The notes: a model not told the origin generated them from the letters alone. Shown: positions 7,013 through 23,858, counted from the stretch's first letter. The stretch: 64,000 nt of DNA from an uncultured Gammaproteobacteria bacterium (GCA_942491945.1 CALODD010000035.1:4110-68109), one strand, 5' to 3'. Program-made: numbers and translations.

Positions 7013-7519
7013 ATGAAGACCATATCAATCATGTTCTTGCTTGCATATTGCGCGGTATCCTATGCAGAATTATATAAATGGGTAGATCAGAAGGGGAAAA
7101 TCCATTATTCAGATCGCCCATTAAATCAGAAAGCAGAAAAGTATTCCCCTCCTCCTCTACAGACAATTCCAGCTTTACCAACAGAAACTATCAAGCCCTT
7201 AAAAAAATCATCTAAAGATAGTAGTAAGTATGAATTGATACAGATTACTACTCCAAAACAAGATCAAATTTTGACACATGATCAGACAGATATTGCGGTA
7301 AATGTAAGATTAAAGCCTGGGCTAGATATAGGTAAATCCCACAAGCTAGCAATATACCTTGACGGATCTCTATATGCAGAAGGCTCAAAATTTAGCTACT
7401 CCATCTCTAATACAGATAGAGGAACGCATAATATTTATGCAGCAGTGCTAGATGACACAAATAAAGTACTTATAAAAACAGAACCCGTAAGCTTTCATGT
7501 GAAACGCCACCATCGCTGA
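7013..7519 (+). CDS. DUF4124-domain secreted protein
   Basis: Signal peptide followed by ELYKWVDQKGKIHYSDRP, the DUF4124 signature. Confidence 0.7.
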   Translation: MKTISIMFLLAYCAVSYAELYKWVDQKGKIHYSDRPLNQKAEKYSPPPLQTIPALPTETIKPLKKSSKDSSKYELIQITTPKQDQILTHDQTDIAVNVRLKPGLDIGKSHKLAIYLDGSLYAEGSKFSYSISNTDRGTHNIYAAVLDDTNKVLIKTEPVSFHVKRHHR

Positions 7520-11483: not shown

Positions 11484-11730
11484 GAGGCACCTCCTTCTAT
11501 ATGGACATACCCTTTAGACCCATAATACGAACAAATGCTCAACTAATAATATTTTACTGTGATCAGAACTATCTATCTGTCACGCAGGACGATTCCTTCT
11601 ATACGCTCTGGTTATTAATCATCAAATCGAGAATTCTTGAACTACTTCCAGAAAAAACACTTGTCAAACAACGGTATTACGTCCTAAAGTTAAACCTGTG
11701 TCATTCATTAATAAATCTATGGAGCTTTCC

Positions 11731-12162
11731 ATGAAACAGGCTTTGGCAATAACCGTAATATCATTGTCACTTTGCAGTTTTGCGGCTAACTCAAAACTAT
11801 ATAAGTGGGTGGATGACAAGGGTCAGGTCAACTACAGCCAGACCAAACCGACGGATTTCAAAGCGTCCGAGGTTAATGCGCCACCTCCACCACCTAGTGA
11901 TGCACCAGATTTAAATAAGCCCTTCGCTGACCAGATACGTTCGAAATCGACTTCGAAAAATGGATCTAGTTCTTCTAGCTCAACTGGAAATAACTCAAAC
12001 GATGACGCATGCGAAACCGCTAGAAAAAATCTTTCTGCGCTTCAAAACAATGCCCGAATAAAATACAAAGATACCAAAGGTGAAACAGTCATCATGCCTG
12101 ACGATGTAAAGAAACAAAAAGTCGAAGAGTCTCAGGAGCAGGTCAAGCAATTCTGTAAATAG
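11731..12162 (+). CDS. DUF4124-domain secreted protein
   Basis: GGAG lies 7 nt before the ATG at 11731. The signal peptide MKQALAITVISLSLCSFA is followed by KLYKWVDDKGQVNYSQ. A Ser-rich linker is present. Confidence 0.7.
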   Translation: MKQALAITVISLSLCSFAANSKLYKWVDDKGQVNYSQTKPTDFKASEVNAPPPPPSDAPDLNKPFADQIRSKSTSKNGSSSSSSTGNNSNDDACETARKNLSALQNNARIKYKDTKGETVIMPDDVKKQKVEESQEQVKQFCK

Positions 12163-12218
12163 CCTGATATTGAACACTGCGGACTACGCTATAGAGCCCA
12201 TATACCACACAAATAAAA

Positions 12219-12239
12219 ATGCCACCTGACTGGTGGCAT
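12219..12239 (-). terminator. intrinsic terminator hairpin between convergent genes
   Basis: A perfect 8-bp stem ATGCCACC / GGTGGCAT with loop TGACT. On the minus strand it is followed by TTTTTATTT, so it fits best as the terminator of 12280..12786. Confidence 0.65.
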
Positions 12240-12279
12240 TAGATATGTAATTTTTACTGACTAAATAAACCAGGGCATA

Positions 12280-12786
12280 TTACCAGGGCATAAAGTTATT
12301 AAACATCGACATGGGCCGTGTATTCTGAGCCATGCCAGCAACTGAATGACGCATATGCTCATTAGAGTACGTAATCGCCCTCATCGAATGATTCATTTGC
12401 TGTGTCTCTGCCACCATATTAGTCACTGAACCATCCAGTTTTTCCATATGTGAAAGCATCGGAGGCAACGATCGAATATCCGATGACATATTATTAATCG
12501 TCACTGTCATTTTCTGCATACTATCGGTGATTCGAGCCATGTGGTGCCCCATATTAGGGTCCAGGCTCCGAGCAATTGTACGAATATCGCTAGTCAGGCT
12601 GTAAATCAGGTAGAAGCCAAATGCTGCAAGAACCATGAATGCTACCAGAGAGGGATAAACGATGACTTGCCATTGTTTTGCACTTTTTTCAACGACAGAT
12701 AGGAAACGCTCCATGCTCTGTTCATTGATGCTGCTGGTTCCTTCACTAGTCTGAACCGCCACGGCGGTTTCTTGCAGTTCTGTCAT
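12280..12786 (-). CDS. single-pass membrane protein with Met/His-rich C-terminal domain (unknown function)
   Basis: 168 aa with one TM segment (VIVYPSLVAFMVLAAFGFYLIYSL). A periodic Met-rich tail follows (MGHHMARITDSMQKMTVTINNMSSDI...MRHSVAGMAQNTRPMSMFNNFMPW). Confidence 0.5.
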   Translation of the reverse strand: MTELQETAVAVQTSEGTSSINEQSMERFLSVVEKSAKQWQVIVYPSLVAFMVLAAFGFYLIYSLTSDIRTIARSLDPNMGHHMARITDSMQKMTVTINNMSSDIRSLPPMLSHMEKLDGSVTNMVAETQQMNHSMRAITYSNEHMRHSVAGMAQNTRPMSMFNNFMPW

Positions 12787-12931: not shown

Positions 12932-15900
12932 CTAGGGACAGCTGCCATTATTTTTTGCCAAATCGACATTAATTGCATGAGTACCTGCGCCTTTATACGC
13001 GGTATACCAGATTGCATTTTTTGTCCCGGTACTTGATATGGTTGTCCCTGAAATCCTGGAAGCATAATCACAAACTGTTTTACTGTATGTAAACTGGACA
13101 GCCACGCCGGCTGATGTAGATGGATTAACCTGGATTGAGCAATTGATGGAATTACCCGATGCCGGAGTACAGTTTCCATCACCACTATTGACGGTTGTAC
13201 CGGTAACAGAATAAGCGGTAGTGTTAGTAATTGATGCAGTCGTATCATATTTCGTGAAACTAAAAAGGAGGTTTACAGTTTCCAGATTTGATGCCACCAC
13301 AACTGATTCGGTTAGATCATCGCCACTCGTAGTATTATCAGTCTCCGTCGCTGTAGCCGAACTGGCATCGTAGGTAATCGTAGTACCTACCGCGACAGCC
13401 GCGTTCACTGACGCATTCACTTGCAATGTAGCACTAGCCCCGACACTGAGATTAAACCCACTCCAGGTCACTGTGCCTGAACTATGTGCCGCAGTACCCG
13501 TCGATGCCGTATGCGATAGATATGTTGAATCAGAAGATAATTTACTGGTAAATGACAGATTAGTAGCAGGGTCGCCGCCATTATTTTTAATCGTCACCAA
13601 ATATTGCAACGCGTCACCGGCCTGCGGTGTGGAGTCTCCACTATTAAGGGTTATATCGGTCTCAATATCAGCCACTGGGCTACTACCTATGGTGATAGTC
13701 TCTGAACGATCATCGCTGGCTATACTATCTACCCCCGGAGCGACAGATTTCGCGACATTAGAAGCATCGATGGTAAAACTTATATTATCTCCTACCGTCC
13801 CCGAATTCACTGACGCATCCAATACAAGCGTTGCCGAGGCATCAACTGCTAACGTAGTCATTGCCCAAGTTCGTGTTCCACTAGTATAAGTGCCCGTACT
13901 CGCATTACTACTTACATACCCTAGTTCTGTTGGCCATGCATCATGGGTCAACGAAACCGTCGTCGCCGCAACAGGGCCATTATTAGTTACTGTAACGGTA
14001 TATTGAACCTGGTCCCCCACCTGAGGAGTCCCATCCCCACTACTCAAAGTAACGTCAGTTTGTAAATCAGCTTCACCCGTAGCCACTACAGATACTGAAG
14101 CACTTAGGCTATCGCCCGTCGTACCTGGGTCGTTGTTATCGCCAGCGGCTGCAGTCGTAATATTGGTCAGTGTTGTGCCTTCCGTACCAGCATTGACTGA
14201 AGCATCGATGACGATATTAACGCTGGCGTCTTTTGCTAAAGAGCCAATCGTCCACAGACCACTGCCTGATGCATAAGTACCCTGAGAAGCTACGGCTGAT
14301 ATAAACGTGAAACCGCCTGGGACTGCATCTGTAAGCTTCACATTCGTATCCGCATCAGGGCCATCATTAGCGACGACAATCTTAAACTGAACCGTATCTC
14401 CCACCTCAGGCGTTGAATCAGCACTATTAAGCGTTTTCACCGTGGTCAGATCAGATGTTTTAGTTGACGAAGTTACCGTACAGCCAAAATTTTTGTTTGT
14501 TACATTTGCTGTTACCGCGCTCCCGGCAAATGAATAAGCTTGATCAGTAGGCGTTGTGCAAGAACCATTCTTCACACTAATGAGAACATTTCCTTCCCAA
14601 CCGATGCCAGTACTATCACTACTATCGTATGTATGAAAAACAGTACATGAATAATCAGCAATTTCTTTACCTGAGCCCATTGATGATCTATCCGTAACAG
14701 TACAATTACCTGCTGTACCATAGGTTTGATCATCTGAAGTATTCACAACAAACGCATCACTAACCAGTACACCATTGCTATTGCTGATAGATCCTGTAAT
14801 CGTATGGGTGAATTCTGGTACCAAGGATGGATTAAAGCCACACCCTGCCGTATCCATAAAGTAAGGGTAACTGCCTTCATTATTAATAATGTTTGTAGAA
14901 GACACATTACCTGAAGCGTCTGCTGAAATAACAGAACTTTCGGCAAGAATAGTATTTCCAGATGCATTTACCGTAATAGTTTCAAATATAATTTGGTCAT
15001 TATCAGCAGCTAGATAGCCCTCTTCCAGCCGTGTATCGCTGGTATACCAATATGGCTGTATCGCATCGGTCACACTATTACCGGACGCATCGGTCGTCTC
15101 GTAATAATGGGATTGATTGAGACAGACAAAATCATCTGGTGTATTGGCAAATGCATTAAGATCGTTCCCTGTATCGTTTCCTGAGGCATCGTATATATTC
15201 AGAAGGAACTCAGATTCATTCTCCATAACGCCTTTACAACCAGCATCATCATCGTTATTCCCAAGATCAAGTGCTAGAAAGTTATGTCCAGGCAGATAGG
15301 CATTACCAGAAGGATCAATACGGTAACCAGAGTTATAATTAGCATTGATATTAGCATCATGAGGACTTGGCAATATCAGCTCATCCTGAACTCCAACTGT
15401 ACGGAAGTTACCTACACCATCACTATTTTCATCGTCTAGTACGAGGTCATTACCTACAGTTGATGCACCTGCGCCCTGATAGTAGTCCTGCGACATCAAT
15501 CCACGGTAGCTGCGTCGGCCGGAAAACTTCGGCCCATTCATACCATAGCCACCATTCGTGACCGGGTCGCCGACACAAACATTGGCCTTTTTATTTGAGA
15601 CACTTTCTTCATGCAATATACTGATATTGCCAAACCAGTTGCCACCCATGTAACAAGTATATGGAAAATAACTATAGTCACCTGTATCAACGAGGGCAGT
15701 CTTGTTTTCAACACAGGCAGCGCCCGGAGTATTTGCAACAAAAATATTACTCACATCAATATCGGCATCGGAATCTTCTAACCAGACATAGCCACTTATT
15801 TCTGAGAAAGTAATACAGGCACCATTGTCACAGGCATCTTCAATTCGTAATAGAATATAACCATTTGCATCAATCAGTTCGACACGGTTCTGAGCTAGAT

Positions 15901-16537
15901 TTGTATAGGTATAGCTACCATCATCGTTCTGCTCAGCACCAGCAGGTATACTGCCATATTTGCCGGTTCCTTCTTTAGCATTACCAGATGATGTTGGATA
16001 GCCATCGACCGAAGCTGAGTCTGATGCAAGCGCTGCCACTTCTTCAGGACTTCTGTATAAAACATTGGTGCTTAATACCACTTCATCTGTATTACCTGTT
16101 TTAGGATCAGTCCAACTTACCTTAACGTCAACAACGACTGTGACCGCACCTGACGCGGCAGTCATGTTCCAGGAGCGAGTAAAATCAGCATTTACGCCGG
16201 CGATCGTTGCTGCTTCAGTAACCGTTGCGGTATCTCCAGCCTGACTATCCAGATAGCTCAGTATGTCAGCTTGAAAAGTATCGGTGGAGTCCAGATTAAT
16301 ATTACGTAATTTGGAAACCAGCTCTGGCTGGTTAATATAATTTCGTACTTCGTCGACTTTTTGCTGGGCAAGAGCTACCGCCTCCGCTCGAGCCTTACTT
16401 GATCCGCTACTCGAGACAAGACTGGACTGAAATTTAGCTACCGCTAACAAACCAACGGCAATAATAACTACCGCAATCAATGCCTCTATCAAGGTAAAAC
16501 CATGAGATTGGCGACGTGAAGAACTAGCATATATCAT
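12932..16537 (-). CDS. giant PilV-type minor pilin fused to an adhesin-like region with three DUF11 repeats
   Basis: The likely start is the ATG at 16537, preceded by GAGGGTG. It gives MIYASSSRRQSHG|FTLIEALIAVVIIAVGLLAVAKFQ, a class III (prepilin) signal with G-1/F+1/E+5 and a PilV-like helix. About 1,150 further aa follow: a Cys/Asp/Asn-rich region, three DUF11-like repeats and a 118-aa Cys-containing C-terminal domain. Confidence 0.8.
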   Translation of the reverse strand: MIYASSSRRQSHGFTLIEALIAVVIIAVGLLAVAKFQSSLVSSSGSSKARAEAVALAQQKVDEVRNYINQPELVSKLRNINLDSTDTFQADILSYLDSQAGDTATVTEAATIAGVNADFTRSWNMTAASGAVTVVVDVKVSWTDPKTGNTDEVVLSTNVLYRSPEEVAALASDSASVDGYPTSSGNAKEGTGKYGSIPAGAEQNDDGSYTYTNLAQNRVELIDANGYILLRIEDACDNGACITFSEISGYVWLEDSDADIDVSNIFVANTPGAACVENKTALVDTGDYSYFPYTCYMGGNWFGNISILHEESVSNKKANVCVGDPVTNGGYGMNGPKFSGRRSYRGLMSQDYYQGAGASTVGNDLVLDDENSDGVGNFRTVGVQDELILPSPHDANINANYNSGYRIDPSGNAYLPGHNFLALDLGNNDDDAGCKGVMENESEFLLNIYDASGNDTGNDLNAFANTPDDFVCLNQSHYYETTDASGNSVTDAIQPYWYTSDTRLEEGYLAADNDQIIFETITVNASGNTILAESSVISADASGNVSSTNIINNEGSYPYFMDTAGCGFNPSLVPEFTHTITGSISNSNGVLVSDAFVVNTSDDQTYGTAGNCTVTDRSSMGSGKEIADYSCTVFHTYDSSDSTGIGWEGNVLISVKNGSCTTPTDQAYSFAGSAVTANVTNKNFGCTVTSSTKTSDLTTVKTLNSADSTPEVGDTVQFKIVVANDGPDADTNVKLTDAVPGGFTFISAVASQGTYASGSGLWTIGSLAKDASVNIVIDASVNAGTEGTTLTNITTAAAGDNNDPGTTGDSLSASVSVVATGEADLQTDVTLSSGDGTPQVGDQVQYTVTVTNNGPVAATTVSLTHDAWPTELGYVSSNASTGTYTSGTRTWAMTTLAVDASATLVLDASVNSGTVGDNISFTIDASNVAKSVAPGVDSIASDDRSETITIGSSPVADIETDITLNSGDSTPQAGDALQYLVTIKNNGGDPATNLSFTSKLSSDSTYLSHTASTGTAAHSSGTVTWSGFNLSVGASATLQVNASVNAAVAVGTTITYDASSATATETDNTTSGDDLTESVVVASNLETVNLLFSFTKYDTTASITNTTAYSVTGTTVNSGDGNCTPASGNSINCSIQVNPSTSAGVAVQFTYSKTVCDYASRISGTTISSTGTKNAIWYTAYKGAGTHAINVDLAKNNGSCP
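13289..14470 (-). repeat. three tandem ~129-136-aa DUF11-type repeats inside the giant pilin gene
   Basis: A recurrent pattern is visible: TPxxGDxVQ[FY]x[IV]xVxNxGPxxAT[NT]VxLT ... G[TS]Y...G.W.[IM]..L....S..[LI]..DASVN. The repeat boundaries were computed from the translation. Confidence 0.7.
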
Positions 16538-16577
16538 GAGTTCACCCTCATTAGATTCAAATGCCCCATATCCCCAC

Positions 16578-17909
16578 CTAAAAGTCTTTCCAGCTACCAG
16601 ATGTTGCGATATTCTCGGCAAGAGCTTCTTCCATATCACGCAAGATGCCGCTGTCATACCAGATATCTAGCGTACCCGTTACCGCTGTATTTGTACCCTC
16701 AACAATCATGGCACCATGAACTTCCGGGTTACCTGCCGTGTCGACATCACCAATTACATAAAGAAGCCCTAGCACTACAGCGCCGTTCGTCTTAAAGTCA
16801 CCATCAATCACGACTAACGATGGCCCTCTCGTCCCCACATCTTTGCAAGGCGTATCGTATGCACCATAATCTGGGCCGCTATTCTTAGCACGCGTACCCA
16901 TTGAGGCGGAACATCCGACTGTAGGGCTGCCCGAAGTATCGCCATCTACCCATATGATTTTATTCGTCGCTAGATTCGCTCCATCCGGATAATCATCCGC
17001 AAAATCTGCTCCGCTGATAACAATATCGGCAACGTTATTTTTAAAGTGTGCTTTCGAAACGCCAAAGGTAGCCATAAAAAACTCATCCGGCGTGTAGTCA
17101 GATAGTGTTGTCTCTCCGTCAATCACATCGCCCATAGTCGCCGTTTTTGCGGCAGCATCAACCACAACACACTTGACATATTCAGTACCTGGGCAACCAT
17201 TATATAAAGTACCATCATCACATTTAAATTCACCACCGCTACAGGCTGGCCAATTGTTATCAGAATTTGTCGAATCCTTACTAGCTACTCGAGTCGAAAC
17301 CGTTGCATTATTGCCTGAAATAGTTGCCACGCCACCCGTCACAATGGTGCCGAAGCCCTCTGGATTATGTATTGTCGCTGAGCCACCAACTACCAGTGAA
17401 CCACGAGCCGTAAAGGGCGTATTTGGCGCTGTTGCCAAAGGGTCATCCGTACCTATCGTTGTAGAAACAGTTCGACTAGCAACCCCGTCACCACTAGTAC
17501 CGACTGATGTAATATAAAAGTTATCAGAGTCACTTACGGTACTGGCATCCATGGCCAGTGTTATTGCCACTGTAGAATTATTATTAAATGTTTTACTATT
17601 TGTCGTCCCTGATGCATCAGTTGCAACTAGCCCGCTTGCATAGAACACGAACTCATCTGATACGGCATCGTCATCATCGTGATCAAAGCCCCCATTCTCA
17701 GCGTAGGCAATAGCCGCTTCCATACCTGCCTCAGCAGCCTCAAATGCCATTTTACTTCGAGCATCATTGCCGGAAATTTTCTGCTCTATCGAAACTGTCT
17801 TTGCTGTATATAGCGTTATCATCGTTATCAGTGTCAGAATAATAAGCGAGATCAATATCGTCATCGCTCCTCGTTGCCTAACCCGTGTACTGGTAGTTAT
17901 TAAACGCAT
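16578..17909 (-). CDS. PilX-family minor pilin/pilus assembly protein, unusually large
   Basis: The N-terminus MRLITTSTRVRQRGAMTILISLIILTLITMITLYTAKT...ARSKMAFEAAEAGMEAAIAY matches the PilX N-terminal domain pattern. The product is about 443 aa. The start is ambiguous between 17909 and 17942. Confidence 0.7.
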   Translation of the reverse strand: MRLITTSTRVRQRGAMTILISLIILTLITMITLYTAKTVSIEQKISGNDARSKMAFEAAEAGMEAAIAYAENGGFDHDDDDAVSDEFVFYASGLVATDASGTTNSKTFNNNSTVAITLAMDASTVSDSDNFYITSVGTSGDGVASRTVSTTIGTDDPLATAPNTPFTARGSLVVGGSATIHNPEGFGTIVTGGVATISGNNATVSTRVASKDSTNSDNNWPACSGGEFKCDDGTLYNGCPGTEYVKCVVVDAAAKTATMGDVIDGETTLSDYTPDEFFMATFGVSKAHFKNNVADIVISGADFADDYPDGANLATNKIIWVDGDTSGSPTVGCSASMGTRAKNSGPDYGAYDTPCKDVGTRGPSLVVIDGDFKTNGAVVLGLLYVIGDVDTAGNPEVHGAMIVEGTNTAVTGTLDIWYDSGILRDMEEALAENIATSGSWKDF

Positions 17910-17919
17910 AAGTTCACCG

Positions 17920-18714
17920 TTATCTAACTCTAATTTGATCATTTCTAACTCTGACCGTGATATTCATGGAAGCATCAACCAGATCATCGCTAATCAATTC
18001 AGCATTTAATGAAATCTCAACGTTGCGTATTTCACCTGTGATATCACCCGCGCTTGGCGCCACACCACCCTGGGATGCATAACAGTTATTTTCATCTACA
18101 CCGCCCGTCGAAGTATCATCATCCTGTGTGGCATTGATACATTGAGCATTAGATAGATCAAACGTTAGTGCATTTACATTTATAGTGTTTTGATCAGTAA
18201 TTCTTTCCCAACTACCTCTGGCACAATCATCCGCATTGGTTCCCGCATAGGAGCAATCGTTGGAAGTCCCAGAATCATCGCAACTACTGCGCATCCATAT
18301 TGCGTTATCAACTAATTTAAAACCTAACAATTCAGTGACGGATGGATTCCCTCCACTGTTATCGGAATCGTAAGCGTAGGTAATGCAGTTGCCACTTCCG
18401 GTATCTCCGGCAGATGTATTTGCTGAGGCATCACGCACATCGAGCGCTGTGCCACCCTCTTCACTAAAAGGGTTACTAGAAGAGTTCGAGGGAGTTGCGT
18501 CAGCCCAGTATCCCGCACGGCGAATGTCAGTAGACATGATATTAACCAATGTCATAATCTCCTGGTTAAGGCGACTTTGCTGCAAGGTATCTTTTGTACT
18601 ATTAAGCGTTGACACATAAACAGTTAATACGCCTGCAACGACAAAAAGGCCTACTGTCATCCCTATCATCAGTTCGACAAGTGTAACGCCGTGTTGTAAA
18701 TTTTGACTCTTCAT
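17920..18714 (-). CDS. PilW-like type IV pilus minor pilin
   Basis: MKSQNLQHG|VTLVELMIGMTVGLFVVAGVLTVY is a prepilin signal with E+5. The ATG at 18714 lies 2 nt after the upstream gene's stop. The track ORF used a TTG at 18723. Confidence 0.75.
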   Translation of the reverse strand: MKSQNLQHGVTLVELMIGMTVGLFVVAGVLTVYVSTLNSTKDTLQQSRLNQEIMTLVNIMSTDIRRAGYWADATPSNSSSNPFSEEGGTALDVRDASANTSAGDTGSGNCITYAYDSDNSGGNPSVTELLGFKLVDNAIWMRSSCDDSGTSNDCSYAGTNADDCARGSWERITDQNTINVNALTFDLSNAQCINATQDDDTSTGGVDENNCYASQGGVAPSAGDITGEIRNVEISLNAELISDDLVDASMNITVRVRNDQIRVR

Positions 18715-18716
18715 AG

Positions 18717-19340
18717 TCAACAATCCGGATAGCCGCCAACTTTATTATTGCCACTCGCATCACTAGGGGGAGAGCAAAGGCTAACTCGACCTAGAGCATT
18801 CACTAGCACTCTAATTTCCCCGCCATCCTCGCCAGCTGCAGCATAATCGGACTGTAGTGTAATAGATCCTGCTGTAGCGGTACCTCGAACGTAACTAAAG
18901 GTTAGGTGAGCATTACTAGAGTAATCGAACGTAGAACCCGTCAAATTCACGCCTACGTAATCTTCATGTTCCATGCGGCGCAGTATATTTTCATCAGCGG
19001 CATCAGCAGCATCAGCATCACCATCATCCACCCGTAGTACGCATGCATTTGCTGCAGTATTTACTATCACATCGGGGTTACATGCAGCAGCTCCAGCAAT
19101 CATTCCAAGATCCCAATCTCGATTACCATCTCGATCAATACTAACGATTATATTCTGAGAGCGAGCCACTGCCTCTGAACGAGCAGACTGGAGTTCACCA
19201 TATAACCCTTCCGCACCCGCAATTAGACGTTTCTTATCAAAAAAGCCACCCAGATTAGGGAGTGCGAACGTAGCAACAATAGCTAGTATCGCCACAGTAA
19301 TCATGAGCTCCATTAGAGTAAAACCAGTATAGGCACGCAT
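18717..19340 (-). CDS. FimT/FimU (GspH-family) type IV minor pilin
   Basis: MRAYTG|FTLMELMITVAILAIVATFALPNLGGFFDKKRL... shows the typical GspH/FimT N-terminus. Confidence 0.75.
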   Translation of the reverse strand: MRAYTGFTLMELMITVAILAIVATFALPNLGGFFDKKRLIAGAEGLYGELQSARSEAVARSQNIIVSIDRDGNRDWDLGMIAGAAACNPDVIVNTAANACVLRVDDGDADAADAADENILRRMEHEDYVGVNLTGSTFDYSSNAHLTFSYVRGTATAGSITLQSDYAAAGEDGGEIRVLVNALGRVSLCSPPSDASGNNKVGGYPDC

Positions 19341-19507
19341 ATTCTTTCAATAAGCAATCTAGTGCGTTAATTATATGCTAGTTACTAACCGCTTGGCAGG
19401 ATTGTGAGCACCGATCATCCGAAAAAATATACATTCCATCTGCTTCACGGTAGCATTGGCACAATATGCAAATTAAAACTAGCCCACACCCATACGGAAC
19501 ATACAAG

Positions 19508-19996
19508 ATGAGCACTCGTGCATACGCTAAAGGATTCACACTAATTGAGCTAATGATAGTAGTAGCAATCATCGGGATACTAGCCTCAATTGCAACTCCC
19601 GCATACAACTCTTACGTACAAAGAGCTAAACGAACCGATGCAACAACTGCACTAAGCCAAATTCAGCTTACGCAAGAAAAACTACGAGCTAACTGCCGAT
19701 ATTACGGCCTTGAGGGCGCTTCGAGCAGCTGCGGCGCAAACGCTGCTGCAACCACTGTATCTGTAGCTGACTCAGATGCTGGCACCGCTGGCTACCAGAG
19801 TCCAGAAGGACACTACACCCTTGATATTTCTAGCAACAGCGGCACCGCATATACTGCAACAGCAACTGCTTCATCTACATCACAATTGGGAGATACGGAT
19901 TGTCGTGTATTCACATTAAAAATAGAGCCAGCTAACCCGCAAGGCGAAAAAACCAGTACAGATAGTGGCGGAAGTGCCTCAACGAATTGCTGGTAA
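19508..19996 (+). CDS. PilE-like type IVa pilin
   Basis: MSTRAYAKG|[36 protein letters not shown]. The C-terminus has a Cys pair (disulfide loop). The first ATG giving a short leader is at 19508. Confidence 0.8.
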
Positions 19997-20587
19997 TCAC
20001 CAACTGCAACTTTTCGTTGGATATCCTGCAACGTGACCATCACCTGAGGGCGAACACATTCGGATTCTACCCAGCAGCCCGGTTACCACTTTTAGACGGT
20101 AGCCGGACTCTGACTCAAGTTTTACGCTTCCAGCCTTAGCTGTTCCACGGACATATTTAAATTTTGCTTCATCAGAGCCAAAGGTAACATTACTCACACT
20201 GACTCCAGTGTAGTCATTACTCACGACTTTATACTGCACGTAGTCATCTGAATCCAAAACCCCGTCACCATCATCAATGATGATATAACAGGGGTTACTA
20301 TCTACCATTGCATGGTCAGGATTGCATCCAGATGTTTGACTAATCACCGCTACCCACTCGGTCGAACCACTGATCTCGAAATCCACATACGTGTCGGCTG
20401 AAGTAGCAATCGCGTGCGCACGAGCTAATTGCAAATAGCCATATATTGCTTCACCTGCAGCAATTAAATGACGCTTTTCGAAATAACTATTGAGGTTAGG
20501 AACTGCTATCGCCACGAGCATCGATAGAATCGAAATCGTCATCAATAACTCGATTATTGTGAACCCCGCATACAAATAATGTCGCAT
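19997..20587 (-). CDS. second FimT/GspH-family minor pilin (paralog of 18717..19340)
   Basis: GGAGGG precedes the ATG at 20587. The product starts MRHYLYAG|FTIIELLMTISILSMLVAIAVPNLNSYFEKRHL. Its C-terminus (LGRIRMCSP...GYP) parallels the other copy (LGRVSLCSP...GYP). Confidence 0.75.
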   Translation of the reverse strand: MRHYLYAGFTIIELLMTISILSMLVAIAVPNLNSYFEKRHLIAAGEAIYGYLQLARAHAIATSADTYVDFEISGSTEWVAVISQTSGCNPDHAMVDSNPCYIIIDDGDGVLDSDDYVQYKVVSNDYTGVSVSNVTFGSDEAKFKYVRGTAKAGSVKLESESGYRLKVVTGLLGRIRMCSPSGDGHVAGYPTKSCSW

Positions 20588-20638
20588 AATCCCTCCGGAC
20601 AACCCAGAGAAATCATGCGGCATTTAATCCATTAATTA

Positions 20639-20697: not shown

Positions 20698-21726
20698 CTA
20701 AGCTTCAACAGTTTCAACTTCTGCACTATCTGCAGGCTCTATACCCAGCAGTTTTTGTCGCAGTGCCGCGTCCACTTCCTCAACTATTTCAGGATGCTCT
20801 TTCAGGTACTGACGGACATTTTCTTTACCCTGACCGATACGATCTTCACCATAGCTATACCAGGCGCCTGCTTTCTTGATAAGACCATGCTCAACGCCGA
20901 GGTCAATAATCTCGCCCAGGAACGAAATACCTTCGCCGTAAAGAATTTCAAAAGTCGCGATCTTGAATGGCGGCGCCATTTTATTCTTAACCACTTTCAC
21001 CTTCGTATCGTTACCGACAATTTCATCACCTTTCTTGATTGCACCAGTACGGCGAATATCTAACCGAACCGACGCGTAGAACTTCAGTGCGTTACCACCA
21101 GTGGTCGTTTCAGGATTGCCAAACATTACACCGATCTTCATACGAATCTGGTTAATGAAAATCACCATCGTGTTAGAGCGCTTGATATTTCCCGTGAGCT
21201 TACGCAGCGCCTGCGACATGAGACGGGCCTGCAGACCCATATGCGAATCACCCATCTCACCTTCAATTTCTGCCTTCGGTGTTAGGGCCGCAACTGAGTC
21301 AATCACGACCAGATCAACCGCCCCAGAGCGCACCAGCATGTCGGTAATCTCCAGGGCTTGCTCACCGGTGTCCGGCTGAGACACCAATAAATCATCAATC
21401 GAGACATTAAGCTTTTCTGCATAACTCGGGTCTAGCGCATGTTCGGCATCGACAAATGCCACGGTTCCGCCCTGCTTTTGCGCCTCAGCAGCTACCTGCA
21501 ATGACAATGTTGTTTTACCGGAAGATTCAGGGCCGTAGATCTCGATAATCCGCCCCTTCGGTAAACCACCGATTCCCAGCGCCACATCCAGTGCCAGTGA
21601 GCCCGTCGGAATCACCTCAATATCAGTCGCTTTGCCATCACCCATACGCATCACAGAACCCTGGCCAAACTGCTTTTCTATCTGAGAGAGCGCTGCGGCG
21701 AGTGCTTTTTGTTTTTGATCTTCCAT
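20698..21726 (-). CDS. recA: recombinase RecA
   Basis: 342 aa with the Walker A motif GPESSGKTT. Similarity to RecA is unmistakable along the full length. AGGAGG lies 7 nt upstream of the ATG. Confidence 0.97.
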
Positions 21727-21778
21727 TTCATTGCCTCCTGTGGCGATTATCTTTTCCGCCTCCTGGCGGGATAACTGA

Positions 21779-21807
21779 AATGTAGTTTATACTTTTTATT
21801 ATGTCAA
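21779..21807 (-). promoter_or_regulatory. putative sigma70 promoter of recA
   Basis: On the minus strand: TTGACA (21807..21802), a 17-nt spacer, then TACATT (21784..21779), about 53 nt upstream of the recA ATG. Confidence 0.45.
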
Positions 21808-21834
21808 TACTTTTTATCATACATATACTTTTTA
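21789..21834. promoter_or_regulatory. three exact direct repeats ATACTTTTTA at 18-bp phasing (candidate operator)
   Basis: Exact 10-mers occur at 21789..21798, 21807..21816 and 21825..21834. The first lies in the promoter spacer, the second overlaps the -35 hexamer and the third is upstream of it. All sit in the recA / WYL-regulator divergent intergenic region. Confidence 0.5.
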
Positions 21835-21900
21835 CCACCAAAAGACTTTATATTTAGCTCCATATTGAGAATAATCCATCTGAATAACTGCGGTATAAGA

Positions 21901-22797
21901 ATGGAAATACGAATGGCCGATATAAAGACACAACAGGACATCAAGTGGAATACGCGCCAGCGGCTGCAATATATCGAGATTATGGCCTGGTATACCGGCG
22001 TCGTGAGCAGAAGCGACCTAGCCCGTACCTTTGGTCTATCCGACCCGGCCGCAACCAAGAACCTCAAATTATATAGCGACCTGGCACCGAAAAATCTGAT
22101 TTACCAGCAGAGTGTCTTTGGCTTTGTTCCCAGTGATAGCTTTGTTGCTATGTTTGCGGATTTATCACCCCAGGTCGCACTGCCATTGATGGCCGATAAT
22201 CGAGCGATCATAAGCCAGCCATTCGGTGAGATGCCGGTCTACGGCATTCCAACAGCACAATTACCACTACCCGCACGTTATCCAACTCAAGATATACTCG
22301 CACAACTGACCAGAGCGATTCGGCATCAACGCAAGGTAGAGGTCAGCTATCACTCACTATCTGGCAATACTGAACCACGGATTATCGAACCTCATTCACT
22401 GGTAAATAACGGCCTGCGCTGGCATCTACGTGCGTACAACAATCAGAGTTTCGATTTCAGAGACTTTGTACTGGCACGTGTTAGCACAGCTCAAATGCTG
22501 GATGAGCCGATGGAATCAGATGCACTGTACGATGAGGATTGGACCGACACCGTCGTTATTCAGCTATCGCCCCACCCTGGACTCAACGAACAAAAGCAAC
22601 TGGGCTTAAAACTGGATTATCAGATGCAAGGAAATATCCTGGAAATTGAAGTACGCCGCGCATTGGCAGGCTACCTGCTACAACGCCTTTCGGTTGATAC
22701 AACGGCAGATCACCATTTAAATGCAGACGCGTATCAGCTGATCGTTGCCAACCGAGATGAAATTGAGCCTTACTGTGGCTGGGTTTTCAGTAATTAA
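21901..22797 (+). CDS. wHTH + WYL-domain transcriptional regulator
   Basis: The N-terminal HTH-like region reads RQRLQYIEIMAWYTGVVSRSDLARTFGLSDPAATKNLKLY. The WYL-type core reads RIIEPHSLVNNGLRWHLRAYNNQSFDFRDFVLARV. The first ATG is at 21901; the track ORF starts at a TTG at 21865. Confidence 0.65.
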   Translation: MEIRMADIKTQQDIKWNTRQRLQYIEIMAWYTGVVSRSDLARTFGLSDPAATKNLKLYSDLAPKNLIYQQSVFGFVPSDSFVAMFADLSPQVALPLMADNRAIISQPFGEMPVYGIPTAQLPLPARYPTQDILAQLTRAIRHQRKVEVSYHSLSGNTEPRIIEPHSLVNNGLRWHLRAYNNQSFDFRDFVLARVSTAQMLDEPMESDALYDEDWTDTVVIQLSPHPGLNEQKQLGLKLDYQMQGNILEIEVRRALAGYLLQRLSVDTTADHHLNADAYQLIVANRDEIEPYCGWVFSN

Positions 22798-23308
22798 ACC
22801 CCCAATCAGCCAGAACATCATATATAGGCCCAGCTGACCTCAATCGTGATTCGACTAACGAAAAACCATTTACTCGCCAGTGAATCGGCACGATCTCATG
22901 CGTCATGATTGATGAGGCATCCGCTCGCCGCGCCATCGTCACGTGTGGTTTATAAGCTCGTTTCTCTCGTGCAATACCAACCACCGATAAGGCATGTTGA
23001 AGGTCAGCCTGCAATACCATTAACTCATCGATCGGTTTTGATGGATGCAATCCGACAATACCCGTCTTTGTCCAGCTGAAGACCTCATCTATAACCACTT
23101 CAAACGACCTCGCTACCACGCCATCTGCAGCCAATCCGATCGCATCCATCATGTCATCGGGCTGATCCCCAAGGAATGACAGCGTCATATGAAAGTTATC
23201 TGAATTAACCGGATGCTCAAAAATACCCAGCTGTCGTTGCCCCAAGGCCAATGCCTGACGAATTTCGGCATCTGGCCAAAGAGCGAAGAACAAGCGCCTT
23301 TTCTTCAT
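22787..23308 (-). CDS. thpR: RNA 2',3'-cyclic phosphodiesterase ThpR/LigT (2H phosphoesterase)
   Basis: 173 aa with two HxT/S motifs (HMTLSFLG and HVTMAR). Confidence 0.8.
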   Translation of the reverse strand: MKKRRLFFALWPDAEIRQALALGQRQLGIFEHPVNSDNFHMTLSFLGDQPDDMMDAIGLAADGVVARSFEVVIDEVFSWTKTGIVGLHPSKPIDELMVLQADLQHALSVVGIAREKRAYKPHVTMARRADASSIMTHEIVPIHWRVNGFSLVESRLRSAGPIYDVLADWGFNY

Positions 23309-23781
23309 TCGCTAATAAATCTCAGCAAACCCGCCAATGCATAATCTGCTGCCGCCCCACGTACTGCTTCTCGATCCCCATCAAAATGCTGCGCCTCTTC
23401 CTCTACACGATCTGCTGCTGCCCAGGCGAACCAGACTGTGCCAACCGGCTTCTCGTCAGTTCCACCATCAGGACCAGCAATACCGCTGATCGCTATCGAT
23501 AGATCGGCATGACTTTTTTTAATCGCCCCGGCAGCCATCTCATGAACGGTCTCACAGCTCACCGCACCATGGCTATCCAGTATCTGTGAACTAACTCCGA
23601 GCATCTCGACTTTGGCTTCATTGCTGTAGGTCACAAAGCCTCGCTCAAACCAGGCCGAACTTCCGGCCTGATCTGTTAGCAGCTTTGCTACAAGCCCAGC
23701 AGTACATGATTCCGCGGTCGCGACTTTTAAATCTCGCTTCAGCAATTGCTGGCTTAGTTTATTGATCGTGCTAGCACTCAT
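23305..23781 (-). CDS. pncC: CinA C-terminal-domain protein / nicotinamide-nucleotide amidohydrolase PncC
   Basis: Contains ATAESCTAGLVAKLLTDQAGSSAWFERGFVTYSNEAK. The likely start is MSASTINK at 23781. It overlaps thpR by ATGA. Confidence 0.85.
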   Translation of the reverse strand: MSASTINKLSQQLLKRDLKVATAESCTAGLVAKLLTDQAGSSAWFERGFVTYSNEAKVEMLGVSSQILDSHGAVSCETVHEMAAGAIKKSHADLSIAISGIAGPDGGTDEKPVGTVWFAWAAADRVEEEAQHFDGDREAVRGAAADYALAGLLRFISE

Positions 23782-23858
23782 TGCATTATCTCTAAATATT
23801 CTAACCCTCGGCATCGGCTTTCGCCTGTATTCTTGTATAATCGCGCCGCATTCACATC

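What the first reader, a model, noticed from the sequence alone, without database searches (positions are those of the whole stretch)
12932..19340. Minor-pilin operon ending in a 1,201-aa PilV-type prepilin fused to a DUF11-repeat adhesin, with no separate pilV or pilY1
On the minus strand the order is fimT-like, pilW-like, pilX-like, then a giant gene. The giant gene's product starts with a textbook class III signal and PilV-like helix (MIYASSSRRQSHG|FTLIEALIAVVIIAVGLLAVA). It then continues for about 1,150 aa. These comprise a Cys/Asp/Asn-rich region with possible Ca-binding-like DxNxDG stretches, three tandem DUF11-type repeats (13289..14470) and a 118-aa Cys-containing terminal domain. In the canonical fimU-pilVWXY1E arrangement, PilV is a ~180-aa minor pilin. 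The tip adhesin PilY1 is a separate protein without a pilin anchor. Here the slot after pilX is taken by one polypeptide that combines a pilin anchor with an adhesin-sized ectodomain. This suggests a covalently pilus-integrated tip adhesin. MshQ-like proteins of MSHA pili may be a partial precedent, so the novelty needs checking.
Basis: partly seen in the sequence, partly recalled or inferred. Interest (0 to 1): 0.72.

Follow-up and report, generated by a model that had tools for sequence, protein, structure and literature searches.

The report
Giant PilV-class modular minor pilin
The 1,201-residue gene is real and intact: it is an oversized PilV-type pilus subunit carrying a long adhesin-like extension, one member of a widespread but unstudied family that sits in a conserved pilus-tip gene cassette lacking the usual separate tip adhesin PilY1.

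Summary
On the minus strand the genes run FimU-like (18717-19340), PilW/PpdB-like (17920-18723), PilX_N protein of 454 aa (16578-17942), then one uninterrupted 1,201-codon gene (12932-16537). That gene has a class III prepilin signal, a PilV-like pilin module, a Cys-rich region, three DUF11 (CLIPPER) domains and a 118-aa Cys-containing end.

The interpretation needs correcting on three points.
- The order FimT/U-PilW-PilX-PilV is the known order of E. coli ppdA-ppdB-ygdB-ppdC and of the V. cholerae competence-pilus operon. Both lack PilY1. The giant therefore sits in the normal PilV slot, not in a PilY1 slot.
- It is not a one-off. An exhaustive profile search found 509 protein clusters (E<=1e-30) of long PilV proteins, median about 680 aa and up to 1,584 aa. 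They share a conserved Cys-rich core with no Pfam family and no significant PDB match. In 65 loci the same cassette recurs, and none of 67 long-PilV genes is followed by PilY1.
- The DUF11 domains are a rare insert between two family-typical Cys domains.

Pilins fused to functional modules are an established concept, and a pilin-DUF11 architecture is already catalogued. The most likely function is a pilus-tip adhesin built into the priming complex. That function is inferred, not shown. No member appears to have been characterised.

The parts
19997..20623 (-). FimT-like GspH-family minor pilin (208 aa) with E5 and a C-terminal G-R-I-R motif
   Evidence: Pfam GspH and N_methyl hits. GRIR lies at aa 185-188. 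It matches the FimT G-[R/K]-x-[R/K] DNA-binding motif described in PMC12040237.
19466..19996 (+). PilE-like minor pilin (176 aa), divergently transcribed
   Evidence: Pfam ComP_DUS 1.4e-16 and N_methyl 2.3e-09. A PilE-like gene accompanies the cassette in most related loci.
19370..19399 (-). sigma-70-like promoter match upstream of the FimU-like gene
   Evidence: CTGCCA-18-TATAAT, 10 of 12 matches. This is a consensus match only; the number of such sites in the region does not exceed the shuffled expectation.
18717..19340 (-). FimU-like GspH-family minor pilin (207 aa)
   Evidence: Pfam GspH 7e-10 and N_methyl 3.9e-07; NCBIfam PRK10506 5.9e-13.
17920..18723 (-). PilW/PpdB-like (GspJ-class) minor pilin (267 aa)
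   Evidence: N_methyl 1.2e-05; NCBIfam PRK10557 5.8e-12. The orthologous genes in related loci carry PF27121 PpdB.
16578..17942 (-). Enlarged PilX/GspK-class cap pilin (454 aa), lacking E5
   Evidence: Pfam PilX_N 1.1e-08. The mature N-terminus RG|AMTIL has no Glu5. Median length is 410 aa in 64 related cassettes.
12932..16537 (-). Giant PilV-class modular minor pilin, 1,201 aa (whole gene including stop)
   Evidence: Family membership.
16499..16537 (-). Class III leader peptide (aa 1-13, MIYASSSRRQSHG)
   Evidence: Leader ends in Gly, followed by F+1 and E+5 (FTLIE). N_methyl and TIGR02532 score above their cutoffs.
16013..16498 (-). Pilin module (aa 14-175): long alpha-1 helix plus a four-stranded sheet
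   Evidence: AF2 model 2 gives pLDDT mostly 83-94 in the helix and strands, lower in the loop between them, with helix then four strands. TIGR02523 PilV is the best NCBIfam hit for all 24 family members tested.
15098..15997 (-). Family-defining Cys-rich core (aa 181-480) with motifs YxYFxYTCYxGxGWxGNIG, VCVGDP and RRxYRG
   Evidence: Invariant C275, C295, C321, C434, W301, G303 and others in alignments A1 and A2. AF2 gives a beta-rich domain at aa 185-350 with 10-residue-block mean pLDDT of about 64-93, mostly 75-93. No Pfam family, no significant PDB sequence match and no significant fold match.
14468..14842 (-). First, weak copy of the family's Cys-bracketed beta domain (aa 566-690)
   Evidence: Pattern NC..YSCTV..GWEGN..GSCTTP. 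Weak match to the family C-terminal-domain HMM, i-E 0.0044. AF2 pLDDT is about 65-78.
14072..14461 (-). DUF11/CLIPPER repeat 1 (aa 693-822), with an intact putative isopeptide triad K701/D737/N792
   Evidence: Pfam DUF11. Residues and spacing; the K-to-N spacing of 91 equals K715-N806 in 9IFR (PMC12617251). AF2 pLDDT exceeds 90.
13682..14071 (-). DUF11/CLIPPER repeat 2 (aa 823-952), lacking the Lys and Asn of the triad
   Evidence: Alignment of the three repeats.
13289..13681 (-). DUF11/CLIPPER repeat 3 (aa 953-1083), lacking Lys, Asp and Asn of the triad
   Evidence: Alignment of the three repeats. Foldseek match of the DUF11 region to 9IFR: TM 0.81, rmsd 2.8 A.
12935..13288 (-). C-terminal Cys domain (aa 1084-1201) ending ...AKNNGSCP
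   Evidence: Homologous to the C-termini of P0003 (2.5e-09) and P0067 (3.6e-08). Matches the family C-terminal-domain HMM at 24.5 bits, 1.7e-09. 109 of 172 retrieved proteins end with Cys in the last 6 residues and 43 end in CP. AF2 confidence is low.
12280..12786 (-). 168-aa membrane protein, possibly co-transcribed; membership of the system uncertain
   Evidence: No terminator-like site lies between it and the giant gene. It is 73-78% identical in the syntenic loci L003 and L004 but absent from the cassette in other genera.
12218..12240 (-). Terminator-like hairpin closing the transcription unit
   Evidence: 9-bp stem with 5 GC pairs, followed by a T-run.

Best explanation
The cluster at 12.9-20.6 kb is a type IVa pilus minor-pilin (priming and tip) cassette of the Vibrio/ppd type. 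Its order is FimT-like, divergent PilE-like, FimU-like, PilW/PpdB-like, an enlarged PilX cap pilin, then PilV last. There is no PilY1.

The 1,201-aa gene is the PilV (GspI/PilI-class) subunit of that cassette. It belongs to a large unnamed family of long PilV proteins. In these proteins the pilin module is followed by a conserved Cys-rich core and one to several Cys-bracketed beta domains. In this gene three CLIPPER/DUF11 Ig-like stalk domains have been inserted before the last Cys domain.

Proposed mechanism:
- Prepilin peptidase removes the 13-residue leader (inferred).
- The alpha-1 helix with Glu5 docks the protein into the PilX-PilV-PilW-FimU priming complex (inferred).
- That complex ends up at the pilus tip, so the roughly 1,000-residue disulfide-bonded ectodomain is displayed there. 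It is covalently part of the filament and acts as the tip adhesin in place of PilY1 (inferred).
- The beta-strand that licenses assembly, which PilY1 supplies in trans in other systems, is probably supplied in cis by the enlarged PilX, as proposed for PilY1-less systems (inferred from the literature).

Shown here: gene integrity, domain architecture, family membership, cassette conservation and the absence of PilY1 from the cassette. Inferred: processing, tip location and adhesive function.
For: - Intact ORF with Shine-Dalgarno sequence and class III signal.
- N_methyl scores above its cutoff. PilV TIGR02523 is the top NCBIfam hit for the giant and for all 24 family members tested, and ComGE (the PilV equivalent) is second.
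- The cluster contains GspH-type, PpdB-type and PilX_N-type genes, so the PilV class is the only missing core class.
- The PilX-like protein lacks Glu5 while all other subunits have it. This fits the tip order PilX > PilV > PilW > FimT given in PMC12040237.
- The same gene order occurs in E. coli ppdA-ppdB-ygdB-ppdC (PMC7248040) and in V. cholerae VC0858-VC0861.
- Family size: 509 representatives at E<=1e-30. The best 150 have lengths 353-1584 aa; the 161 family proteins in hand have a median of 677 aa.
- Cassette survey of 65 loci and 67 long-PilV genes: 64 have the enlarged PilX directly upstream, 60 show W-X-V, 55 show H-W-X-V, 43 are followed by pilE and none by pilY1.
- PilY1 genes occur in five loci. 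Where gene lengths were read directly (L005 and L014), PilY1 follows short pilV-pilW-pilX genes in an adjacent canonical cassette; L010 and L050 show the same layout in the survey listing.
- The pairing of enlarged PilX with no PilY1 against short PilX with PilY1 matches the cis/trans beta-strand rule of PMC13533445.
- The DUF11 region is modelled with pLDDT above 90 and matches the CLIPPER structure 9IFR (TM 0.81) and Ig-domain arrays. CLIPPER is a stalk domain of fibrillar adhesins (PMC12617251).
- The accessory domains found in other long members are all adhesin-stalk types: Flg_new_2, Big_9, cadherin-like.
- The cassette proteins are 33-60% identical between syntenic relatives whose flanking housekeeping proteins are 65-94% identical. 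This is as expected for exposed tip components.
- Modular pilins acting as adhesins have experimental precedent in PilB of S. sanguinis (PMC8179133).
Against: - There is no experimental evidence for any family member.
- The PilV assignment rests mainly on the alpha-1 helix region. The TIGR02523 score is just below its curated cutoff (49.8-50.9 against 52.2). Profile comparison of the globular part alone did not discriminate between minor-pilin classes. BLASTP against E. coli PpdC finds nothing.
- PilV/GspI is normally the smallest tip subunit (PMC7248040). Whether a 1,000-residue appendage is sterically compatible with that position, or with passage through the secretin, is untested.
- The conserved core has no recognisable fold or ligand-binding signature, so calling it an adhesin is by analogy only.
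- The rest of the source genome could not be searched. A PilY1-containing cassette may exist elsewhere, as it does in L005, L010, L014, L029 and L050.
- No pilus assembly machinery is encoded in the window.
Confidence: 0.6

Rival explanations
1. The cassette is a competence (DNA-uptake) pilus tip set like V. cholerae VC0857-VC0861. The giant PilV ectodomain would serve that pilus, for example by tethering to particles or chitin or by capturing DNA, rather than general surface adhesion or twitching.
For: The gene order and the lack of PilY1 match the V. cholerae competence T4aP. The upstream FimT-like pilin keeps the G-R-x-R DNA-binding motif. The cluster abuts recA and cinA in the window and in the syntenic loci L003 and L004.
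Against: The recA/cinA adjacency is lineage-specific and absent in Thioalkalivibrio and most other loci. No DNA-binding signature was found in the ectodomain. In several genomes the cassette sits beside a canonical PilY1 cassette, which suggests alternative tips for one machine. This explanation is not exclusive of the main one.
Confidence: 0.15
2. The ectodomain is structural or regulatory rather than adhesive. It would stabilise or license the priming complex, gate the secretin or sense surfaces, as proposed for the PilY1 beta-propeller. Its conserved C-terminal tail might dock back onto the tip complex.
For: The core domain and the C-terminal ...CP tail are conserved across the family, while only the middle varies. 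A core conserved across distant genera is more typical of an assembly role than of ligand binding. PMC13533445 shows that tip proteins can have licensing roles.
Against: The inserted modules are typical adhesin stalk domains. Divergence between close relatives is high. The enlarged PilX already fits the cis-licensing model.
Confidence: 0.12
3. The protein uses the prepilin signal only as an export or anchor device. It is not polymerised into pili; it would remain an inner-membrane-anchored or periplasmic protein, or be part of a short pseudopilus.
For: The ectodomain is very large, and the window encodes no major pilin or assembly genes. GspI-class subunits are normally small.
Against: The protein has Glu5 and a full alpha-1 helix. 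It is always co-encoded with a complete H-J-K set and a PilE-like pilin. PilY1, MshQ and CpaL proteins of 600-1,400 aa are accepted tip components. Sixteen Cys residues and CLIPPER domains point to an extracytoplasmic, mechanically loaded protein.
Confidence: 0.08
4. Artefact: a frameshift or misassembly has joined a small pilV to an unrelated DUF11 adhesin gene.
For: None beyond the unusual size.
Against: The reading frame is continuous, with a proper Shine-Dalgarno sequence and start. The region between the pilin module and the DUF11 domains (aa 181-690) is itself conserved in hundreds of prepilin-led homologues from independent assemblies and cultured strains. P0003 and P0067 have the same pilin-core-DUF11-C-terminal layout.
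Confidence: 0.01
5. It is a divergent PilY1 or MshQ homologue that has acquired a pilin N-terminus.
For: Similar size. It is the last gene after the PilX-class gene, as for pilY1 and mshQ.
Against: No PF05567 PilY1 hit and no PilY1- or MshQ-named hit in Pfam or NCBIfam. A local PilY1 HMM finds nothing in the window. No beta-propeller is predicted. In this cassette type the last slot is the PilV slot.
Confidence: 0.03

Closest known systems
Modular type IV pilins (PilB and PilC of Streptococcus sanguinis; concept and census in Raynaud et al. 2021, PMC8179133)
   Same: An N-terminal class III signal and pilin module is followed by grafted functional modules that are proposed to be exposed at the tip. 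The census lists more than 1,200 such proteins in 264 architectures. These include one IPR012902-IPR001434 (N_methyl-DUF11) protein. DUF11 is also found fused to PilY1 in 5 proteins.
   Different: PilB and PilC are bimodular pilins of a Gram-positive (monoderm) pilus. Here the carrier is a PilV/GspI-class core minor pilin of a diderm cassette. The extension is about 1,000 aa, larger than the 860-aa 'most extreme case' cited in that paper. Most of it is a conserved core without any database signature.
V. cholerae competence T4aP minor-pilin operon (FimT VC0858, PilW VC0859, PilX VC0860, PilV VC0861) and E. coli ppdA-ppdB-ygdB-ppdC
   Same: Same gene order H-W-X-V, no PilY1, and a cap pilin lacking Glu5. 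The PilK/PilX homologue carries a large insertion in V. cholerae.
   Different: E. coli PpdC, the PilV-class subunit, is a small pilin of 107 aa. Here the PilV-class subunit is 1,201 aa, with a family median of about 680 aa. No detectable BLASTP similarity to PpdC.
PilC/PilY1 tip adhesins (and MshQ of MSHA pili)
   Same: Large tip-associated proteins encoded at the end of the minor-pilin operon. They are modular with variable adhesive parts, and DUF11 is among the modules fused to PilY1.
   Different: PilY1 and MshQ are not pilins. They attach non-covalently, by donating a C-terminal beta-strand to PilK/PilX (PMC13533445). The giant has its own pilin anchor and no PilY1 beta-propeller.
Large minor pilins with extra domains: GspK, CofB/TcpB, ComZ, CpaL/TadG
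   Same: Tip-located pilin-like proteins whose extra domains cap the filament or give it a function. CpaL and ComZ are 550-600 aa.
   Different: Those proteins are the cap (PilK-class) subunit or T4b/Tad initiators. Here the cap-class gene is a separate enlarged PilX_N protein, and the giant belongs to the PilV/GspI class, normally the smallest subunit.
CLIPPER (DUF11) stalk domains of fibrillar adhesins (PDB 9IFR, PMC12617251)
   Same: Three tandem DUF11 domains with a CnaA-like Ig fold (TM 0.81 to 9IFR). Repeat 1 keeps the Lys/Asp/Asn isopeptide triad with the same Lys-Asn spacing.
   Different: Repeats 2 and 3 lack the triad. The anchor is a pilin helix rather than an OmpA-like, sortase or T1SS/T5SS anchor.

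Membership tests
Type IV (pre)pilin / class III signal peptide | Short hydrophilic leader ending in Gly, hydrophobic +1 residue (Phe), Glu at +5 and about 20 hydrophobic residues | tested here: met
   MIYASSSRRQSHG|FTLIEALIAVVIIAVGLLAVA. Pfam N_methyl 32 bits against 21.2; TIGR02532 20 bits against 16.3.
Type IV (pre)pilin / class III signal peptide | Cleavage and N-methylation by the prepilin peptidase PilD | not testable with these tools
   Needs biochemistry. No pilD gene lies in the window.
PilV (TIGR02523 equivalog; GspI/PilI/ComGE class) | Score at or above the curated whole-protein cutoff of the PilV model | tested here: inconclusive
   49.8-50.9 bits against a cutoff of 52.2. It is the best NCBIfam hit for the giant and is matched by 24 of 24 family members; ComGE is matched by 6 of 24. 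The globular part alone is not discriminating.
PilV (TIGR02523 equivalog; GspI/PilI/ComGE class) | Small size, the smallest of the core minor pilins (about 110-190 aa) | tested here: not met
   1,201 aa; family median 677 aa. Statement on GspI size from PMC7248040.
PilV (TIGR02523 equivalog; GspI/PilI/ComGE class) | Encoded with GspH-, GspJ- and GspK-class genes as the fourth core minor pilin | tested here: met
   H, W(PpdB) and X(PilX_N) genes lie directly upstream. H-W-X-V is seen for 55 of 67 long-PilV genes.
Modular pilin (Raynaud et al. 2021) | [quoted passage not shown] | tested here: met
   N_methyl plus three DUF11 domains. The same architecture is listed in Dataset S1 of PMC8179133.
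Modular pilin (Raynaud et al. 2021) | The extra module directly mediates a pilus function such as adhesion | not testable with these tools
   Needs genetics and binding assays.
CLIPPER / DUF11 (PF01345) | Pfam match above the gathering score and a CnaA-like Ig fold | tested here: met
   173.6 bits against 24.6, in 3 stretches. Foldseek match to 9IFR: TM 0.81, rmsd 2.8 A.
CLIPPER / DUF11 (PF01345) | Intramolecular Lys-Asn isopeptide with a catalytic Asp | tested here: inconclusive
   The triad residues are present only in repeat 1 (K701, D737, N792) and absent in repeats 2 and 3. Bond formation itself needs mass spectrometry or a structure.
PilC/PilY1 | C-terminal PilY1 beta-propeller domain (PF05567 / IPR008707) | tested here: not met
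   No Pfam hit. The local PilY1 HMM finds nothing in the window. No propeller appears in the AF2 models.
PilC/PilY1 | The C-terminal roughly 10 residues donate a beta-strand to PilK/PilX | not tested
   This would need multimer modelling of the giant's tail with the PilX-like protein.
MshQ (MSHA pilus) | Sequence homology to MshQ and location after the mshDOP genes | not tested
   No MshQ-named hit in Pfam or NCBIfam at E<=0.01. I did not verify that a MshQ model exists in those libraries, and I had no MshQ sequence to compare.
GspK/PilX cap pilin | Lacks Glu5; PilX_N or GspK domain | tested here: not met
   The giant has Glu5 and no PilX_N hit. The separate 454-aa neighbour fulfils both criteria.

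The most novel reading that the evidence does not exclude
The long-PilV family may be a third, previously undescribed way of putting an adhesin on a type IV pilus tip. The two known ways are trans beta-strand addition (PilY1, MshQ) and insertions in the cap pilin (CpaL, ComZ, V. cholerae PilX). In this third way the adhesin is covalently fused to the PilV/PilI-class subunit. Its conserved Cys-rich core, a fold with no significant PDB match, and its conserved C-terminal ...CP tail would fold back onto the enlarged PilX. The protein would then act as a PilV-PilY1 functional fusion that both licenses assembly and binds the substrate.
Probability: 0.1. Interest if true: 0.75.

Novelty: new variant of a known kind. 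Interest (0 to 1): 0.45.

Why it matters
How type IV pili attach to things is usually explained through PilY1/PilC. Many environmental Gammaproteobacteria carry cassettes without it. This family gives a concrete, testable candidate for the tip adhesin of such PilY1-less cassettes. It occurs in culturable marine genera (Microbulbifer, Colwellia, Thalassotalea, Marinobacterium, Thioalkalivibrio) and often lies next to a canonical PilY1 cassette. Bacteria may therefore swap alternative tips on one machine. It also defines a conserved extracellular domain with no Pfam family and no significant structural match, and it places mechanically robust CLIPPER stalk domains on a retractile filament. The general principle, pilin carrier plus effector module, is already established, so this extends rather than overturns current models.

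Tried and rejected
- Exact look-up of the giant's own contig: not on record. The window's genome is not among the GTDB species representatives; the best hit is 35% identical.
It succeeded with 11 closer sequences.
- The first local HMM iteration timed out and was redone with a faster alignment. My local 'canonical PilV/PilW' HMMs became contaminated by the long family, so I relied on ORF length plus position.
- PDB sequence searches of both halves: nothing significant.
- Foldseek of the aa 1-700 model: no hit at E<0.001.
- The second AF2 run, on the full mature protein, improved the pilin and DUF11 parts. It degraded the central region and left the C-terminal domain at low confidence.
- hhalign of the pilin globular part against canonical PilV, PilW, PpdB, GspH and PilE profiles: all E>=0.03, not discriminating.
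- BLASTP against E. coli PpdC: no alignment.
- A word-indexed homologue search with the core alone (aa 181-480) returned essentially nothing. The exhaustive HMM search was needed.
- The Ca-binding DxNxDG idea is dropped: a single DENSDG motif lies in a low-confidence segment.
- The frameshift/misassembly, PilY1-homologue and MshQ-homologue readings are rejected or unsupported, as set out under rival explanations.
- Literature searches for 'large minor pilin', 'giant pilin', 'PilV-like' and 'tip adhesin' found no paper on this family.

Full report
**1. What is in the sequence**

The minus strand between 12.9 and 20.6 kb carries a compact set of pilin-type genes:
- a GspH/FimT-like pilin (19997-20623);
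- on the plus strand, a divergently oriented PilE-like pilin (19466-19996; Pfam ComP_DUS);
- a second GspH/FimU-like pilin (18717-19340);
- a PilW/PpdB-like pilin (17920-18723);
- a 454-aa protein whose only Pfam hit is PilX_N (16578-17942);
- a very long ORF (12932-16657).

The long ORF's upstream 40 codons overlap the PilX-like gene. The ATG at 16537 has a GAGGGTG Shine-Dalgarno sequence 5 nt upstream and follows the PilX-like stop codon (TAG 16578-16580). It opens MIYASSSRRQSHG|FTLIEAL..., so 1,201 aa is the right length.

Domain hits on the giant:
- Pfam N_methyl at aa 8-33, above its cutoff.
- NCBIfam PilV model TIGR02523 at aa 12-137: 49.8 bits, E 4.8e-13, just below the equivalog cutoff of 52.2.
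- Three DUF11 domains, 173.6 bits.

There are 16 cysteines: 12 between aa 236 and 686 and 4 in the last 118 residues. Only one DxDxDG-like motif exists (DENSDG at aa 369), so the calcium-binding suggestion has no real support.

The rest of the window encodes housekeeping genes: recA, cinA, spoT, parC/parE, dxs, rnfC and others. It contains no PilY1-like ORF, no further class III signal and no pilus machinery.

**2. It is not an artefact and not a singleton**

A word-indexed search with aa 1-700 found 33 proteins. Nearly all start with a prepilin signal. They are 476-1218 aa long and several are labelled 'PilV family' by their sources.

A profile of 24 of them (alignment A1) was then run through every representative of 1.84 billion clusters. 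It found 509 proteins at E<=1e-30. The best 150 all score below about 1e-92 and are 353-1584 aa long. The 161 family proteins in hand have a median length of 677 aa.

The region shared by all members is the pilin module plus a Cys-rich core. The core has strongly conserved motifs (YxYFxYTCYxGxGWxGNIG, VCVGDP, RRxYRG) and invariant Cys275, Cys295, Cys321 and Cys434.

**3. The cassette**

Gene neighbourhoods of homologues, a scan of one genome per species (60 loci) and local HMM classification show a stereotyped cassette. Its order is GspH-type, PpdB/PilW-type, an enlarged PilX_N protein (median 410 aa), then long PilV (median 693 aa, range 409-1468). It is usually followed by, or preceded in reverse orientation by, a PilE-like gene.

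Of 67 long-PilV genes:

| Feature | Count |
|---|---|
| Enlarged PilX directly upstream | 64 |
| W-X-V order | 60 |
| H-W-X-V order | 55 |
| Followed by pilE | 43 |
| Followed by pilY1 | 0 |

Carriers include cultured Microbulbifer, Colwellia, Thalassotalea, Thalassomonas, Marinobacterium and Thioalkalivibrio. They also include many MAGs: Thiohalomonadaceae, Pseudohongiellaceae, Woeseiaceae and Hydrogenophaga.

In five loci (L005, L010, L014, L029, L050) a canonical cassette with PilY1 lies next to the long-PilV cassette. In L005 and L014, where I read the gene lengths directly, that cassette has a short PilV, a PilW and a short PilX before PilY1. Thalassotalea carries two tandem long-PilV cassettes.

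**4. Correcting the frame of reference**

The order H-W-X-V is in fact a known alternative. E. coli K-12 has ppdA-ppdB-ygdB-ppdC. By the equivalences in PMC7248040 Table 1 these are FimU-PilW-PilX-PilV. The V. cholerae competence pilus operon is FimT (VC0858), PilW (VC0859), PilX (VC0860), PilV (VC0861) (PMC12040237). Neither system has PilY1. So 'no separate pilV and no pilY1' is what this cassette type normally looks like, and the giant is the PilV gene in its own position.

Three results support the PilV class:
- All 24 family members tested hit TIGR02523, and ComGE (the Gram-positive PilV equivalent) is the second most common hit.
- The giant has Glu5, whereas the neighbouring PilX_N protein lacks it (RG|AMTIL). 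That is the hallmark of the cap pilin.
- The H, J and K classes are already accounted for by the neighbouring genes.

What is unusual is the size. GspI/PilV is normally the smallest tip subunit, and here it is the largest.

**5. Anatomy of the ectodomain**

AF2 with the family alignment gives:
- a canonical pilin module: helix at aa 16-65 and strands at 110-160;
- a beta-rich domain at aa 185-350, with 10-residue-block mean pLDDT of about 64-93, mostly 75-93;
- a moderately confident piece at aa 420-475;
- a poorly predicted stretch at aa 488-565;
- a moderately confident beta domain at aa 576-690.

Foldseek against the PDB found nothing at E<0.001 for this model, and sequence search of the PDB found nothing significant. 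The core is thus an uncharacterised domain.

The second AF2 run, on the mature full-length protein, modelled the three DUF11 domains at pLDDT above 90. Foldseek matched them to tandem Ig arrays and to the CLIPPER crystal structure 9IFR (TM 0.81, rmsd 2.8 A).

CLIPPER is the renamed DUF11. It is a CnaA-like stalk domain of fibrillar adhesins that can carry a Lys-Asn isopeptide bond (PMC12617251). Only repeat 1 keeps the triad (K701, D737, N792), with a Lys-Asn spacing of 91 as in 9IFR. Repeats 2 and 3 lack it.

The last 118 residues are not an orphan:
- They are homologous to the C-termini of P0003 and P0067 (E 2.5e-09 and 3.6e-08).
- They match an HMM built from family C-termini at 24.5 bits.
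- They end in ...AKNNGSCP, close to the family consensus ...AKNNNTCP.
- 109 of the 172 retrieved proteins end with a Cys in the last six residues.
- The same Cys-bracketed domain occurs in 1-5 copies in 92 of 161 members. It is weakly recognisable at aa 577-688 of the giant.

The DUF11 triplet is therefore an insertion between two family-typical Cys domains. It is a rare one. Among 40 members of at least 800 aa, only 2 have DUF11. Others carry Flg_new_2, Big_9 or cadherin-like domains, which are all stalk-type modules.

**6. Evolutionary behaviour**

The window and two syntenic metagenome contigs (L003, L004) share the recA...spoT frame.

| Proteins compared | Identity between window and L003/L004 |
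|---|---|
| Flanking housekeeping proteins | 65-94% |
| Minor pilins | 33-60% |
| Giant against P0002 (828 aa, no DUF11) | 49% |
| Giant against P0003 (1,218 aa, with DUF11) | 33% |

A fast-evolving, module-shuffling gene in a conserved frame is what one expects of an exposed tip component.

**7. Mechanism**

Current models place PilX (cap), PilV, PilW and FimT/U in that order at the tip. Ellison et al. 2026 (PMC13533445) show that PilY1/PilC is held by donating its last roughly 10 residues as a beta-strand to PilK/PilX. Systems without PilY1 (T2SS, V. cholerae competence T4aP, Thermus, Tad) have a PilK homologue that supplies the strand in cis, often with a large insertion.

The cassette here fits that rule. 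PilX is enlarged (about 410-454 aa) where PilY1 is absent. PilX is short (141 and 183 aa in L005 and L014) in neighbouring cassettes that have PilY1.

My best explanation is as follows. The enlarged PilX licenses assembly in cis. The adhesive role that PilY1 plays elsewhere is carried by the PilV subunit, whose ectodomain is covalently part of the tip complex and, in this organism, lengthened by three CLIPPER domains. Processing, tip location and adhesion are inferences. Architecture, family, cassette and absence of PilY1 from the cassette are shown.

Alternatives are a role specific to a competence pilus, a structural or licensing role for the conserved core and tail, and a non-polymerised anchor. 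The competence reading rests on the FimT-like GRIR motif, the recA/cinA adjacency and the Vibrio-type order.

**8. Comparison with what is known, and novelty**

The concept is established. Raynaud et al. 2021 defined modular pilins, counted more than 1,200 of them in 264 architectures, and listed one N_methyl-DUF11 protein and five DUF11-PilY1 proteins. Large tip pilins such as GspK, CofB/TcpB, ComZ and CpaL are known, but they are cap-class subunits or T4b/Tad initiators.

I found no paper describing a PilV-class subunit with a conserved ectodomain of several hundred residues, or this cassette. The core has no Pfam family and no significant PDB match.

I therefore rate it a new variant of a known kind. 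It is a real, widespread, uncharacterised family and cassette, of which the window's gene is a large, DUF11-bearing member. It is moderately interesting to a pilus specialist because it offers a testable tip adhesin for PilY1-less T4aP cassettes. It is not a conceptual surprise.

Noticed in passing
window 19997-20623 (-): The upstream GspH-type pilin ends with LLGRIRMCSP. This matches the FimT G-[R/K]-x-[R/K] motif shown to bind DNA in V. cholerae, Legionella, Xylella and Acinetobacter. The second GspH-type pilin (18717-19340) has GRVS, so the motif is broken there.
   Followed up: partly
window 20698-23814; L003 2716-5796; L004 1671-4760: The minor-pilin cluster lies directly beside recA. A WYL/BrxR-like regulator (21865-22797, plus strand), a LigT-type 2'-5' RNA ligase (22787-23308) and cinA (23305-23814) follow. 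The adjacency is conserved in the two syntenic relatives but not in other genera. It could hint at a link to competence or DNA damage.
   Followed up: partly
window 12280-12786 (-): A 168-aa membrane protein (weak DUF948 hit) lies downstream of the giant gene with no terminator-like site between them. The first good hairpin is at 12218-12240. The protein is 73-78% identical in L003 and L004 but is not part of the cassette elsewhere.
   Followed up: partly
L005 1-16827; L010; L014 7283-18563; L029; L050: Some genomes carry up to three minor-pilin cassettes side by side: one or two long-PilV cassettes plus a canonical fimU-pilV-pilW-pilX-pilY1-pilE cassette. This resembles the multiple minor-pilin/PilY1 sets of Myxococcus.
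   Followed up: partly
L031 264-14479 (Thalassotalea litorea); also L019, L033: There are two tandem long-PilV cassettes, plus a reversed short pilV-pilW-(193-aa ORF)-pilE set with no PilY1 gene in the 18 kb examined.
   Followed up: no
window 16578-17942 (-): The PilX_N protein is itself unusually large (454 aa; 350-477 aa in nearly all related cassettes) and has no annotated domain beyond the N-terminal 50 residues. Its listed ORF probably starts too early: MIKLELDNGEL precedes a second Met at MRLITTSTRVRQRG.
   Followed up: no
window 33233-34468 (+): A DDE transposase (DDE_Tnp_1) ORF, apparently an insertion sequence within otherwise housekeeping DNA.
   Followed up: no
window 1453-2661 (+) and 29412-31526 (+): A cNMP-binding/EAL protein and a GGDEF-EAL protein (cyclic-di-GMP signalling) lie in the same window as the pilus-tip cluster. 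No link was established.
   Followed up: no
window 7013-7519 (+) and 11698-12162 (+): Two paralogous DUF4124 proteins flank the spoT region.
   Followed up: no
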